The notes under the pieces are model-generated. The model was not told where the DNA came from. It searched no databases and was given only the letters and a program-made list of their open reading frames with translations. From positions 88,725 through 122,331 of the IMG/VR virus record IMGVR_UViG_3300036790_000261: a stretch of 33,607 nt of DNA; one strand, given 5' to 3'. A program made the translations under genes and the position numbers. Within the stretch, counting starts at the first letter, position 1. Every line of letters starts with the position of its first letter. Shown here piece after piece: positions 2 through 2,671 of this stretch. Source of the stretch: a virus. Lineage: Duplodnaviria; Heunggongvirae; Uroviricota; Caudoviricetes.

Positions 2-2671
2 GCCGTCTGGCGCCAGTACCCCAGCGGCATCGAGGAAGCGCAGAAGAAGGCCCTGGCCGGGCCGCCGGCCGCCGCCGCGCACGCGGTCTTCATCGATGCC
101 GCTCCCATCGGGGCCTACCGGCTGCCCCCCTGGGAGCCAGCGCACGAGCTGCCTGTCTCCACCATGGAACTCAAGGACGCCTACCTGGTCAACCGCCTCG
201 TCCGGTACGTGCTGTGGCGCCGGTTCACCTGGGCGCGCGGCCTGCAGTGGATGACCTGGACCGGGCGCCGGTGGGAGTCAGTCGACGAGTCCGTGGTGCG
301 CGACGCCGTCCGCGAGTACTTCATCTACCTGCACACCCAGATGCTGCACGCCGATGACGCTGACATGGAATTCCTCAAGTCCATCACCGGGCTGCTGTCC
401 CAGGCGAAGATATCCGCCGCGGTCAAGCTCTGCCAGGGTCACTCCGGCGCCCACATCCGCGACGCCGGCGCGTTCGACGCCCACCCCGACCTGCTGAACA
501 CCCCCGAGGGCATCGTCGACCTGCGTAACGGCACCGTCCTGCCGCACAACCCGGAGCTGCTGCTCACCAAGATCACCCGGGGCTCCTACCGGCCCGGCCT
601 CACCCACCCCGACTGGCAGCAGGCCCTGACCGCACTGGACACCGAGGAGCGCGCGTGGTTCCAGGACAGGATCGGGCAGGCGTGCACCGGCCACCCGCCC
701 TCGGACGGGATCATGCCCGTGCTGCAGGGCAGCGGCGAGAACGGGAAGACCGCGCTCACCACCGACGGCCCCGTCGTCGCGCTCGGGGACTACGCGGACA
801 TGGCCTCGTCCAAGCTGATCGCCAGCGTTACCCCGGGGCGCAGCGAGCACAGCACCGAGATGGCCGACCTCCGCGGGCAGCGCCTCCTACTGGGCGAAGA
901 GCTGGCTGAGGGCCGGTCCATCGACGTCACCGCGCTCAAGCGCATCCAGGACGTCGGCCGGATCAAGGCCCGGCTCGTGCACAAGGACAACATGTCGTTC
1001 GACGCGACGCACACCCTGTTCGTCACCACCAACTACACCCCGGACATTGCCGAGACTGACCACGGTACCTGGCGCCGTCTCGCGCTGCTGAAGTTCAGGT
1101 ACCACTTCAGGAAGCCCGGCGAGTCCATGGAGACCGCATTCGACCGGGCTGGTGACCCCGGGCTGAAGGGGCGGATCAAGAAGAGCCCGACCGGCCAGCA
1201 CGACGCGATCGTCACCTGGGCCGTGGAAGGCGCGATGCGCTGGTACGCCCGGGGAATGGCCGACGCGCAGCCTCCGGGGCAGGTTGTTGAGGACACTCTC
1301 GCGTGGCGCAAGTCAGCTGACAGCATCTGGCGGTGGCTGGAAGAAAACATGAGCGTCCCGGTCACGCTGCCCGACCCTGCCGATCACCCGTGGTGCGTTT
1401 CCAAGGACGAAGCGCTCGACAGCATCAACTCAATGCTGGAAGCAAGCGGGAAGGCGAAGTGGAGTGTCCAGACCTTTACGAGTCGGCTGCTCGGCCACCA
1501 AGAGTCACAACGGGCGGGGATTTCCGAGCTGCGCACGGTTCGCTTGAAGAACATCAGCAGGCCTCCGCTGGGTGCTCCGGGGGCACCTCGGCGCACGCTC
1601 AGTAGCCAGGTGCGAGTGCTCACCGGACTGGTCTTCCGGCCGACAGAGGAAAGCTCTGACCAGGAACTTGCCAGGCTTGCCACTACTCCCAATAATTCCC
1701 CAAGAGTCTCTCCGCGTAAAGGTTTTACTGAGTATGTGGCAACCCCGGCAAGCACTAGCAACTGGGAGCCACCCTCCGGTTATCCGCCTACTCCCCCTCC
1801 AGGCACAGACAGTGACCAAGATCCTGGCGACGGCGACCCGGCCGCCACTAAAAAGAGCCTTCCGCCGGAAACGGGCGAAAACGGCAAAACGCGCAAAAAC
1901 GCCGATTCCCCCCCAAAGCCGAAAATCCCGAAAAACCGGCTCACCGATGAGGAGAAGCTGGAACGCGCCCAGGCGCGGAAGGAGAAGCTGGCCCAGGATC
2001 GCGTTGACGCCCGCGCGGCGAAGGTGGCCGAGCTGGGCGGCCCGCTGGTGCCCCTGCCGGCGATCGTGCTCCGCGACCAGACGATCTTGCCGTGCACCGC
2101 GGAACAGGCCGCAGCGTTCCTGTCCGGGGCGCTGGACGAGGTCTCCGTGGATGTCGAGCACACCGGGTACCCGCGGATGCATGAATTTTATCGCCTAAGG
2201 CTTGTACAGCTAGGGAACGAGGGGGGTAGTGTCGTTTTCGACCCCAACGACGAGGTGCAAGCAGTTGTCATCCGGGATGTGCTCGGGCGAGCGAAGATTC
2301 TGCACGCACACTCGGCGCTGGCGGACTTGATCCCGCTGGAGCACGCGCAGCTAGGCGACAAGACGATGTGGGACAAGATGCGCGACACGGTAATCGCGGC
2401 GAAGTTGAGCGACCCGAGCCTGTGCGACAGCGACGAGGTTGGCCTGAAGGCGTTGGCGCGCAAGCTCCTCGGTGAGGACTACGCGGTCAGCTGGCGGTGT
2501 GACGAGCGCCGAAAGGAAATTTTCGCCGCAGGTGCCTGGATTGAGAATTGCGAGGTGACGACCGCGGTTGAAAGGAGCGGATGGGCGATGATTCCGCTAT
2601 GCGAAGCTTTTATCCGGTACGCGGCCTCTGATATTTTCGATTGCGCGGCAATCGCCCGCGTTCTCGCGTAA
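2..2671 (+). CDS. Phage primase-associated D5/P4-type SF3 helicase fused, via a Pro/Lys-rich linker, to the 3'-5' exonuclease domain of a family A DNA polymerase (5'-partial)
   Basis: The frame is open from position 2, so the true start lies left of the window. Walker A GSGENGKT, LLGEELAEG and TLFVTTNY fit the D5/P4 primase-helicase C-terminus. The C-terminal SVDVEHTG...LRLVQLG...HAHSALADL...YAASD match Exo I/II/III-like motifs. Confidence 0.88.
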   Translation, partial: AVWRQYPSGIEEAQKKALAGPPAAAAHAVFIDAAPIGAYRLPPWEPAHELPVSTMELKDAYLVNRLVRYVLWRRFTWARGLQWMTWTGRRWESVDESVVRDAVREYFIYLHTQMLHADDADMEFLKSITGLLSQAKISAAVKLCQGHSGAHIRDAGAFDAHPDLLNTPEGIVDLRNGTVLPHNPELLLTKITRGSYRPGLTHPDWQQALTALDTEERAWFQDRIGQACTGHPPSDGIMPVLQGSGENGKTALTTDGPVVALGDYADMASSKLIASVTPGRSEHSTEMADLRGQRLLLGEELAEGRSIDVTALKRIQDVGRIKARLVHKDNMSFDATHTLFVTTNYTPDIAETDHGTWRRLALLKFRYHFRKPGESMETAFDRAGDPGLKGRIKKSPTGQHDAIVTWAVEGAMRWYARGMADAQPPGQVVEDTLAWRKSADSIWRWLEENMSVPVTLPDPADHPWCVSKDEALDSINSMLEASGKAKWSVQTFTSRLLGHQESQRAGISELRTVRLKNISRPPLGAPGAPRRTLSSQVRVLTGLVFRPTEESSDQELARLATTPNNSPRVSPRKGFTEYVATPASTSNWEPPSGYPPTPPPGTDSDQDPGDGDPAATKKSLPPETGENGKTRKNADSPPKPKIPKNRLTDEEKLERAQARKEKLAQDRVDARAAKVAELGGPLVPLPAIVLRDQTILPCTAEQAAAFLSGALDEVSVDVEHTGYPRMHEFYRLRLVQLGNEGGSVVFDPNDEVQAVVIRDVLGRAKILHAHSALADLIPLEHAQLGDKTMWDKMRDTVIAAKLSDPSLCDSDEVGLKALARKLLGEDYAVSWRCDERRKEIFAAGAWIENCEVTTAVERSGWAMIPLCEAFIRYAASDIFDCAAIARVLA

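What the first reader, a model, noticed from the sequence alone, without database searches (positions are those of the whole stretch)
2177..2218. Guide U1 decodes to the exonuclease motif of the gene the element interrupts
Reading U1 as NNx codons gives T-H/Q-K/N-D/E-Y-T-L-R-L-V-H/Q-L-G-N/K. The resident gene at 2177-2218 reads atg cat gaa ttt tat cgc cta agg ctt gta cag cta ggg aac (MHEFYRLRLVQLGN). Nine of 14 dinucleotides are identical, in exact codon register, with the skipped base at the wobble position. One mismatch is a synonymous Arg (AGG versus guide CG), the kind of change that escapes a wobble-blind guide. Inference: the guide targets this conserved motif in related phages' polymerase alleles, and the resident copy has diverged to avoid self-targeting.
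Basis: partly seen in the sequence, partly recalled or inferred. Interest (0 to 1): 0.95.

Follow-up and report, generated by a model that had tools for sequence, protein, structure and literature searches.

The report
Phage VIPR guide aimed at sibling polymerases
The 5-base repeats next to this phage's DNA polymerase genes are guide RNAs of the recently described VIPR system, and the first guide spells a conserved exonuclease motif as related phages write it, while the phage's own copy is changed just enough to escape.

Summary
U1 (14 AGY-NN pentamers, 2685-2754) matches 2177-2218 at 9 of 14 dinucleotides, in codon register. The next best site in the window scores 6, and 2 of 2000 permuted guides reach 9.

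The reading holds. In metagenomic sibling phages the same motif matches 13/14 (L005), 11/14 (four loci) and 10/14 (L016). Only a 1-base skip works. No perfect 14/14 target was found.

The system is already described. It is VIPR (bioRxiv 10.64898/2026.04.26.720920 and .720927, 2026): a Vipr RAMP filament on pentamer vrRNAs, whose NN dinucleotides pair with the target while the wobble base is skipped. ORF 3549-4193 is a Vipr (profile against PDB 36pp "SUSP1 Vipr", E 1e-47).

Four points go beyond those papers:
- The repeats use an AGY code, and the residues aligned with SUSP1's two G1 contacts are Asn.
- The partner gene is a T5orf172 (GIY-YIG-type) protein.
- The cassette sits at the exonuclease|polymerase gene junction in at least four diverged phages.
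- Its outer guides aim at the flanking genes of siblings, and carriers differ from their own guides partly through Ser, Leu and Arg codon-family switches.

Other guides hit the tape-measure gene (U4 12/13, D1 9/11).

RNA-guided homing is plausible but untested.

The parts
2..2671 (+). Primase (D5_N/DUF5906) plus 3'-5' exonuclease cistron. It carries the resident copy of the U1 site.
   Evidence: Pfam hits. Metagenomic homologues P0001-P0050.
2177..2218 (+). Resident allele of the U1 target (MHEFYRLRLVQLGN), mismatched to the guide. It matches 9/14 NN (64%), below the 80% used to call VIPR targets.
   Evidence: Threshold.
2672..2772 (+). vrRNA gene U1: leader 2672-2684, 14 AGY-NN units 2685-2754, tail from AGGAT at 2755. 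Target: the exonuclease motif of sibling phages (NN identical to the coding strand).
2773..2825 (+). vrRNA gene U2 (7 units plus AGGAT tail). Target not found.
2826..2900 (+). vrRNA gene U3 (12 units plus AGGTT tail). Target not found.
2901..2980 (+). vrRNA gene U4 (13 units plus AGGGA tail). Target: the tape-measure gene motif xVKPSVLEAFGIG, antisense. It matches 12/13 in relative L018 and 9/13 in the resident genome at G000 38834-38872 (outside the window).
2981..3045 (+). vrRNA gene U5 (11 units with a 1-nt bulge, plus AGGGA tail that abuts the ORF1 start). Target not found.
3046..3543 (+). Accessory gene (vap): T5orf172 domain (GIY-YIG superfamily) at residues 5-86, followed by a ~75-aa tail that looks helical from its sequence (not modelled).
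   Evidence: Pfam PF10544, E 1.6e-8, 35.4 bits against a cutoff of 20. Five homologues, with Y6, K18, G20, R28 and E72 invariant.
3549..4193 (+). vipr gene: RAMP-fold guide-binding protein, 214 aa.
   Evidence: phmmer against PDB 36pp_D 'SUSP1 Vipr protein', E 1.5e-6. Profile A1, E 1.2e-47 over full length. AF2 model pLDDT 93.8; best PDB folds are Csm3/Cas7. phrog_4652.
Target: tape-measure motif AKIVALQVRA, antisense. It matches 9/11 in L018 and 8/11 in the resident.
Candidate target at 8/10 in a 127-aa ORF upstream of the tape-measure gene of L018. The resident genome has no homologue of that ORF.
Target: polymerase motif KGVLEPYAY(L/T)GD, antisense. It matches 11/12 in L005 and L010.
4697..4732 (-). 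Resident allele of the D3 target (KGALEVYSYLGD), mismatched to the guide at 8/12 (67%).
4421..5629 (+). DNA polymerase A-family polymerase-domain cistron.
   Evidence: Pfam PF00476, E 1e-41. 89% DNA identity to L007 from the first base after the cassette.
4837..4872 (-). Site in the resident polymerase gene (TSILTLAANTGR) that a guide of a different cassette (L016) matches at 10/12 (83%). This phage is itself a likely target of a sibling's VIPR.

Best explanation
Positions 2672-4420 hold a VIPR (Viral Interference Programmable Repeat) locus. It has five vrRNA genes, a T5orf172 accessory gene, the vipr gene, and three more vrRNA genes.

By analogy with the solved SUSP1 system, one Vipr protomer binds each pentamer. 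It buries the constant AGY triplet and presents the two variable bases. These pair with two consecutive target bases, and every third target base is flipped out.

U1's 14 dinucleotides therefore read codon positions 1-2 of the exonuclease-domain motif T-H-K-D-Y-x-L-R-L-V-Q-L-G-N as sibling phages encode it. The U1-loaded filament would bind that site in a co-infecting sibling's DNA. The phage's own copy is spared because 5 of 14 dinucleotides differ: three amino-acid changes at units 1, 3 and 4, the unit-6 mismatch that no sampled allele matches, and a CGN->AGG arginine switch.

Shown here: family membership of the protein, the repeat code, the skip rule, better matches in siblings than in self, and the same logic for D3, U4 and D1 and for three other cassettes.

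Inferred: expression of the vrRNAs, binding, and what follows binding, whether silencing as in SUSP1 or cutting by the T5orf172 protein.
For: Vipr identity. Homologues in Felixounavirus, LittleE and MakoManhole are flanked by GGY-NN arrays.

Code and targets:
- U1: 9/14 in self against 13/14, 11/14 (four loci) and 10/14 in siblings.
- D3: 8/12 in self against 11/12.
- U4: 9/13 in self against 12/13. D1: 8/11 in self against 9/11. Both lie in the tape-measure gene.
- All these sites are in codon register with the wobble base skipped.
- Skips of 0, 2 or 3 bases give at most 6 matches, and permuted guides reach at most 9 (U1) or 8 (D3).

Independent cassettes in L015 and L016 behave the same way, and the carrier's own allele is the lowest or tied-lowest match for 5 of 6 guides.

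The published rule and the 80% target criterion are.

The AGY code goes with a change in the protein. At the positions aligned with SUSP1's two G1-contact residues (H17, D177), AG-type Viprs have Asn. GGY-type Viprs keep His and Asp (one search read).
Against: No RNA data exist, so the vrRNA ends and their expression are unknown.

No 14/14 target was found. The best is 13/14, and guide unit 6 fits no sampled allele.

In the SUSP1 system a GGY>AGY change abolished silencing, so function of AGY repeats rests on the covarying protein residues, not on an assay.

The tails are short (about 10-18 nt), with no visible counterpart of the SUSP1 pseudoknot.

Three guides (U2, U3, U5) have no target, and D2 has only a candidate.

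The resident's total U1 score is not an outlier among the 45 homologues, so some of its mismatch may be ordinary lineage variation.
Confidence: 0.9

Rival explanations
1. RNA-guided homing cassette. The outer guides (U1 on the left, D3 on the right) direct the T5orf172 nuclease to cut the exonuclease and polymerase genes of a co-infecting sibling that lacks this cassette. Repair from the carrier genome then copies the cassette and its immune flanks into the sibling. This would be the RNA-guided counterpart of intronless homing by freestanding GIY-YIG endonucleases. It extends the best explanation rather than excluding it.
For: An empty site exists: in L007 the exonuclease stop codon and the polymerase start are 1-10 nt apart.

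The same T5orf172-Vipr cassette sits at this junction in the window, L015 and L016/L017, and directly upstream of the polymerase cistron in L013.

In the three cassettes that could be tested, the leftmost array hits the exonuclease gene, and a downstream array (the last one in the window and L015, the middle one in L016) hits the polymerase gene. All these sites lie within about 500 nt of the junction. L007, the empty-site relative, is hit on both sides by L015's guides at 11/13 and 10/12.

Carriers are mismatched to their own guides.

The T5orf172 Pfam hit is above threshold, and Y6, K18, G20, R28 and E72 are invariant.
Against: Cleavage is untested, and T5orf172 nuclease activity is assumed from superfamily membership (my own knowledge).

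Other guides (U4, D1) aim at the tape-measure gene 53 kb away. That fits general interference better than homing.

There is an ascertainment bias. For L015 and L016, only 10-20 kb around the junction of relatives could be scanned.

There is no sign that cassette carriers share co-converted flanks. The window's polymerase flank is closer to cassette-free L007 (89%) than to carrier L013.

The junction also holds unrelated cargo in L005, L010 and L011, so it may simply be a permissive spot.
Confidence: 0.35
2. Silencing only. As in SUSP1, the filament just blocks transcription or replication of sibling genomes, and the T5orf172 protein has another role such as enhancing binding.
For: The only demonstrated VIPR activity is binding and repression, and vap1 merely enhanced protection.
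Against: The paper itself links nuclease-type partners to target destruction. The conserved GIY-YIG-type residues argue for catalysis.
Confidence: 0.3
3. Self-regulation. The partial 9/14 match lets the phage tune its own primase-polymerase gene.
For: The best site for U1 in the resident genome is this one.
Against: Siblings match far better than self for four guides, and the same holds in three other cassettes. The match of 64% is below the 80% at which natural targets were called, and no self hits passed that mark in the published survey.
Confidence: 0.04
4. Chance resemblance between a protein-binding repeat and a nearby gene.
For: None beyond the modest 9/14 itself.
Against: Permutation nulls. 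Codon register at every site. The 13/14 and 12/13 matches in relatives.
Confidence: 0.01

Closest known systems
Type II VIPR of Escherichia phage SUSP1 and the Pseudomonas fulva prophage (bioRxiv 10.64898/2026.04.26.720920; structures 10.64898/2026.04.26.720927; PDB 36pp)
   Same: A homologous ~20-kDa Vipr RAMP. Pentamer vrRNAs with a constant triplet and a variable NN, placed on both sides of the protein genes. The 1-nt skip falls on the wobble base. Targets lie on either strand of protein-coding genes of competing phages. No self target reaches 80%.
   Different: The constant triplet is AGY, not GGY, and Asn replaces the residues aligned with the His and Asp that read G1. The tails are short, with no evident pseudoknot. 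The partner is a T5orf172 domain protein rather than a DNA-binding Vap. The targets are essential replication and tail genes of sibling phages, including the two genes that flank the locus, rather than a satellite or prophage regulators.
Nuclease- or helicase-associated VIPR types III-V (same preprint)
   Same: Vipr is paired with a predicted enzyme. The authors infer target destruction.
   Different: Types III and V are reported as enriched in cellular defence islands, and they are called the only types with predicted nucleases. HNH is the one nuclease domain named. Here the locus is in a complete 122-kb virus genome and the domain is T5orf172. I could not see the paper's type table, so assignment to a type is open.
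Freestanding GIY-YIG homing endonucleases of T-even phages (Seg and Mob proteins; intronless homing and marker exclusion). From my own knowledge, not checked in the paper library.
   Same: A GIY-YIG-superfamily gene is inserted between conserved genes, is absent from relatives, recognises sites in the neighbouring gene of relatives, and leaves a resident allele that is immune through sequence differences.
   Different: Here recognition would be supplied by guide RNAs and a RAMP filament rather than by a DNA-binding domain of the nuclease. Cleavage and unidirectional transfer are untested.
Class 1 CRISPR backbone (Cas7/Csm3)
   Same: The predicted fold of ORF2 matches Csm3/Cas7 best among solved structures. 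Both present the guide periodically with flipped bases.
   Different: There is no CRISPR array and no other cas genes. The guide period is 5 nt with only 2 pairing bases, against 6 nt with 5 pairing bases.

Membership tests
VIPR system | Vipr protein: a small RAMP homologue (RRM core, G-loop, thumb) | tested here: met
   PDB 36pp SUSP1 Vipr: E 1.5e-6 for the single sequence and 1.2e-47 for profile A1, both over full length. AF2 model pLDDT 93.8 with Csm3/Cas7 as the best folds.
VIPR system | Flanking vrRNA genes made of tandem pentamers: a conserved triplet plus a hypervariable NN (published: 9-16 YNNGG units, with variants NNNGG, YNNNG and NNNNG) | tested here: met
   Eight arrays of 7-14 units of AG[C/T]-NN, that is YNNAG, which falls under the published YNNNG variant. 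This is the only such locus in the 122-kb genome.
VIPR system | A conserved structured 3' tail that caps each vrRNA | tested here: inconclusive
   Seven of eight arrays end in AGG(A/G/T)(T/A) followed by 8-15 non-repeat bases (D2 ends AGTAA), as read from the sequence. No fold was computed. Rfam has no match in the window.
VIPR system | Targets obey the 1-nt skip rule, with the skipped base at the codon wobble position, on either strand | tested here: met
   Skip 1 gives 13/14 and 11/12, while skips 0, 2 and 3 give at most 6. All five assigned sites are in codon register. U1 is sense; D3, U4 and D1 are antisense.
VIPR system | Natural targets at >=80% NN in competing mobile elements, and none in the carrier's own genome | tested here: met
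   In siblings: U1 93%, D3 92%, U4 92%, D1 82%. In the resident: 64%, 67%, 69%, 73%.
VIPR system | An adjacent accessory (vap) gene | tested here: met
   The T5orf172 gene ends 5 nt upstream of vipr. The same pair is conserved in L013, L015, L016 and L017. Whether it equals one of the published vap1-6 genes could not be checked.
VIPR system | vrRNAs are expressed and form a ribonucleoprotein with Vipr | not testable with these tools
   This is a metagenomic virus, and no RNA data were examined.
Freestanding homing endonuclease (intronless homing) | The nuclease gene lies between conserved genes, and relatives have an empty site | tested here: met
   L007/L008 have the exonuclease stop and the polymerase start 1-10 nt apart. 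The window insert is 2672-4420.
Freestanding homing endonuclease (intronless homing) | A recognition site lies in the cassette-free allele close to the insertion point, and the carrier allele is immune | tested here: met
   The guide-matched sites lie 16-470 nt from the junction in siblings, and the carriers are mismatched. Recognition is inferred from guide matches only.
Freestanding homing endonuclease (intronless homing) | DNA cleavage at that site | not testable with these tools
   There is only the Pfam T5orf172 hit and the invariant residues.
Freestanding homing endonuclease (intronless homing) | Unidirectional transfer with co-conversion of flanks | tested here: inconclusive
   No shared flank haplotype was seen between the carriers (window and L013). 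The GC3 dips are local and partly shared with non-carriers.

The most novel reading that the evidence does not exclude
This T5orf172-Vipr cassette is an RNA-guided homing element. It is a phage-borne VIPR armed with a nuclease, and its outermost guides are aimed at the two genes that flank its own insertion site in cassette-free siblings. Cutting and repair would then copy the cassette and its recoded, immune flanks into the rival genome. The same locus carries further guides against the rival's tape-measure gene. The frequent Ser, Leu and Arg codon-family switches at the targeted motifs would be the footprint of an arms race against a wobble-blind guide.
Probability: 0.35. Interest if true: 0.85.

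Novelty: new variant of a known kind. Interest (0 to 1): 0.6.

Why it matters
VIPR was described only in 2026, and its natural biology is known from two clades, where it silences a satellite or prophage regulators.

This locus shows the same code at work in an uncultured high-GC phage lineage. The constant triplet differs (AGY), and the protein differs at the positions aligned with the residues that read the first base in SUSP1. That gives a testable rule for how the repeat handle is recognised.

It also gives a clean natural example of what a wobble-blind guide selects for in its targets. Escape comes from amino-acid changes and from the only synonymous changes that alter codon positions 1-2 (the Ser, Leu and Arg family switches). 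These are seen in the resident allele here and in an independent carrier.

The pairing with a GIY-YIG-type protein, and guides aimed at the locus's own flanks in four diverged phages, makes RNA-guided homing directly testable.

Tried and rejected
Searches that found no close relatives:
- DNA and protein searches of the phage collection gave no DNA match and one distant polymerase.
- The search for related loci in viral contigs with Vipr or the exonuclease domain found nothing.
- The alignments were too diverse for that tool.
- The genome search could not reach relatives or metagenome records.
- P0005 was not on record.

Exact-pattern scans:
- U1 in full gave 0 hits in viral contigs and in metagenome contigs.
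- U1 with unit 6 free gave 0 hits in metagenome contigs. That collection did not return L005, which I know matches the pattern, so this null says nothing.
- U3, D2 and U4 patterns in viral contigs gave 0 hits.

Other tests that gave nothing:
- Skip lengths 0, 2 and 3 were rejected.
- The two downstream guides of L013 have no target in the loci I hold.
- Complex prediction of Vipr with the T5orf172 protein returned no answer and is not used as evidence either way.
- Rfam, the promoter/terminator scan and ARAGORN found nothing useful.

Ideas dropped:
- A TRAP-like RNA-binding ring on (G/U)AG-NN repeats. I dropped it once ORF2 proved to be a Vipr.
- One continuous low-GC co-conversion tract from 2177 to about 4915. 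GC3 returns to 0.92-0.96 at 2312-2476 and to about 0.9 at 4451-4615. The 4811-4915 dip is shared with cassette-free relatives.
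Full report
**What is there.**
The window is the last 33.6 kb of a 122,331-bp virus record that CheckV rates complete. ORF 2..2671 encodes a primase fused to a 3'-5' exonuclease domain, and ORF 4421..5629 encodes a family-A polymerase domain.

Between them, 2672-4420 holds two genes flanked by non-coding DNA in which AG recurs every 5 bases. Each array has 7-14 units of AG[C/T] plus two variable bases. Seven of the eight end in AGG(A/G/T)(T/A) followed by about 8-15 non-repeat bases. 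It is the only such locus in the genome.

**The observation.**
Read as NNx, they match 2177-2218 at 9 of 14, in the reading frame of the exonuclease domain.
- This is the best site on either strand of the window (next best 6), and 2 of 2000 permutations of the guide's units reach 9.
- It is also the best site in the whole genome.
- The last array, D3, likewise matches the opposite strand at 4731-4696, inside the polymerase cistron, at 8 of 12. The unpaired base is again the wobble base.

**The decisive test.**
The primase-exonuclease protein has about 50 metagenomic homologues. At the U1 site most read ...DVEH[ST]G..-xHKDYxLRLVQLGx, and three read THKDY[R/A]LRLVQLGN. That agrees with the guide's decoding at 13 of 14 codons, against 10 at protein level for the resident MHEFYRLRLVQLGN.

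DNA-level matches in the relatives I could fetch:

| Locus | U1 (of 14) | D3 (of 12) |
|---|---|---|
| Resident (window) | 9 | 8 |
| L005 | 13 | 11 |
| L007 | 11 | 8 |
| L010 | 11 | 11 |
| L011 | 11 | 8 |
| L015 | 11 | 10 |
| L016 | 10 | 7 |
| L013 | site not on this short contig | 10 |

Across four relatives, only a one-base skip gives these scores. Skips of 0, 2 or 3 bases give at most 6. One thousand permuted guides never exceed 9 (U1) or 8 (D3). No perfect 14/14 site was found. Unit 6 of the guide (AC, Thr) fits no sampled allele, and that position is variable in the family (R, A, C, V...).

**What it is.**
A literature search found that this is a described system: Viral Interference Programmable Repeat, VIPR (bioRxiv 10.64898/2026.04.26.720920).
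- A ~20-kDa RAMP protein, Vipr, polymerises on vrRNAs built of 9-16 pentamers with a constant GGY and a variable NN.
- The NN pair with the target, and one target base is skipped per unit. In natural targets that base is usually the codon wobble position.
- Targets lie on either strand, without a PAM, and belong to competing phages.
- Natural targets were called at 80% NN or above, and no self hits passed that mark.
- The structural companion paper shows the filament, the flipped-out GGY and the pocket for the skipped base.

ORF 3549-4193 is a Vipr:
- It matches the PDB chain named 'SUSP1 Vipr protein' (36pp) at E 1.5e-6 on its own, and at E 1.2e-47 as a 60-sequence profile, over full length.
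- Its AF2 model (pLDDT 93.8) resembles Csm3/Cas7 most closely among solved structures.
- Its distant homologues in Felixounavirus HY02, Mycobacterium phage LittleE and Gordonia phage MakoManhole are flanked by GGY-NN arrays.

By the published criterion, U1 (93% in L005), D3 (92%), U4 and D1 have sibling targets, and the resident genome has none (64-73%).

**The other guides.**
In the resident genome, U4's best site (9/13, 0 of 100 permutations) and D1's best site both lie antisense in the tape-measure gene, 53 kb away and in wobble-skip register.

Tape-measure homologues read xVKPSVLEAFGIG where the resident has AVKPAVLELFGEG. In the DNA of one relative (L018), with 0 of 300 permutations reaching each score:
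- U4 matches 12/13.
- D1, read as 11 units with a one-base bulge, matches 9/11.
- D2 matches 8/10 in a small ORF upstream of that tape-measure gene. The resident genome has no homologue of this ORF, so I treat it as a candidate only.

U2, U3 and U5 have no target in anything I could reach.

**How this locus differs from the published systems.**

(1) The constant triplet is AGY. In SUSP1 a GGY>AGY change abolished silencing, but the paper lists variant consensus forms, including YNNNG. In SUSP1, G1 is read by H17 and D177. From alignment A4, read against the SUSP1 profile alignment:
- The AG-type proteins (window, L013, L014, L015, L016) have Asn at both aligned positions. Their G-loop reads IGNARKLGHGRF.
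- The GGY-type proteins (LittleE, MakoManhole, HY02, Trine) keep His and Asp. Their G-loop reads LGDWRPRFGRF.

I read this as a matched change of handle and reader. It is an inference from alignment, not an assay.

(2) The partner gene (3046-3543) is a T5orf172 domain protein of the GIY-YIG superfamily (Pfam E 1.6e-8, above threshold). Y6, K18, G20, R28 and E72 are invariant in its six known relatives. The preprints name winged-helix, HTH and HNH partners, and they say that nuclease partners occur only in types enriched in cellular defence islands. Neither paper mentions homing, polymerase genes or GIY-YIG.

(3) The position is unusual.
- The closest relative, L007, has the empty site: the exonuclease stop and the polymerase start are 1-10 nt apart.
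- Homology with the window resumes at the first base after the cassette.
- Other relatives carry unrelated cargo at this junction.
- The same T5orf172-Vipr cassette sits there in L015 and L016/L017, and directly upstream of the polymerase cistron in L013. Its proteins are 56-85% identical across these loci.

(4) Flank targeting recurs in independent cassettes.
- L015's first array matches the exonuclease motif HSALADLIPLE of L007 at 11/13.
- L015's last array matches the first codons of the polymerase cistron at 11/12 (L011) and 10/12 (L007).
- L016's first array matches the exonuclease gene of L005 at 13/17.
- One of L016's downstream arrays matches the polymerase motif TSILTLAANTGR at 11/12 in L011, and at 10/12 in this window (4837-4872).
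- The carrier's own allele is the lowest or tied-lowest match for five of six such guides.
- L015's own copy of its target differs by Ser TCG->AGC, Leu TTG->CTC and Ala->Cys.

**Mechanism and its limits.**
I hold at about 0.9 that U1 is a VIPR guide against sibling alleles of the exonuclease motif, and that the resident allele is not a target.

What follows binding is open. I see two options: silencing, as shown for SUSP1, or cutting by the T5orf172 protein. If it cuts, repair from the carrier genome would copy the cassette into empty or differently filled junctions. That would be RNA-guided intronless homing, which I put at about 0.35.

Against a pure homing role:
- Two guides aim at the tape-measure gene.
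- No co-converted flanks are shared between carriers.
- For L015 and L016 I could scan only junction-proximal DNA of relatives, which biases where targets can be found.

**Codon usage.**
GC3 drops locally to 0.56-0.68 at 2162-2300, to 0.60-0.72 at 2462-2656, and to 0.68 at 4811-4915. In between it returns to 0.9 or higher. The last dip is shared with cassette-free relatives. So there is no single recoded tract. A/T-ending codons also appear at L015's own target site. Wobble changes should not matter to VIPR, so these dips remain unexplained.

**Earlier notes of this scan.**
After my own analysis I looked up the scan's earlier notes. My tests agree with the first three. They show that the anomaly is patchy rather than continuous.

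**Verdict.**
The kind of system is already known from 2026 preprints. This locus is a new variant of it, with AGY repeats, a T5orf172 partner, and guides aimed at its own flanks.

Noticed in passing
L002 5140-5450 (Mycobacterium phage LittleE, downstream of gp33) and L003 2885-3110 (Gordonia phage MakoManhole): GGC-NN vrRNA arrays lie next to Vipr homologues gp34 and gp78. Each array ends GGGATAGGTA and is followed by a hairpin with a tRNA T-loop-like GGTTCGAnTCC. ARAGORN calls no tRNA there. In LittleE the locus sits beside the tape-measure gene.
   Followed up: partly
window 4811-4915, with the homologous stretch in L005, L007, L010, L011 and L013: In the conserved polymerase motif RVRTSILTLAANTGRTSSRNENLQQ, the relatives switch freely between the two codon families of Ser (AGY/TCN), Leu (CTN/TTR) and Arg (CGN/AGR). 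These are the only synonymous changes that a wobble-blind guide can see. A guide of the L016 cassette targets this motif.
   Followed up: partly
window 2162-2300, and L015 5990-6028: The carrier's own copy of its guide's target is locally rich in A/T-ending codons, against GC3 of about 0.9 around it. VIPR skips the wobble base, so this is not explained by escape from VIPR.
   Followed up: partly
L005 5321-6618; L010 11652-12320; L011 11870-14102: The exonuclease|polymerase junction is a cargo hotspot. Relatives carry unrelated genes there: 289-aa and 143-aa ORFs in L005, a ProQ_C-like protein in L010, and a 267-aa ORF plus a DUF5131 protein in L011.
   Followed up: no
L014 1-190 and 800-960 (contig of P0052, a 39%-identical Vipr): Arrays with AGA-NN units, a purine at the third constant position, and a tail that begins AGGCAGTGCC. 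This Vipr also has the Asn-type G-loop.
   Followed up: no
L001 3908-4010 (Gordonia phage Trine, gp41, next to DNA polymerase I): A Vipr homologue with a GGY-type G-loop lies directly after a DNA polymerase I gene. I saw no pentamer array in the 100-nt gap, and the AG-periodicity scan of the 8.6-kb locus found none.
   Followed up: no
L018 625-654, in ORF 454-837: D2 matches 8/10, in frame, in a 127-aa ORF upstream of a relative's tape-measure gene. The window's genome has no homologue of that ORF by tblastn.
   Followed up: partly
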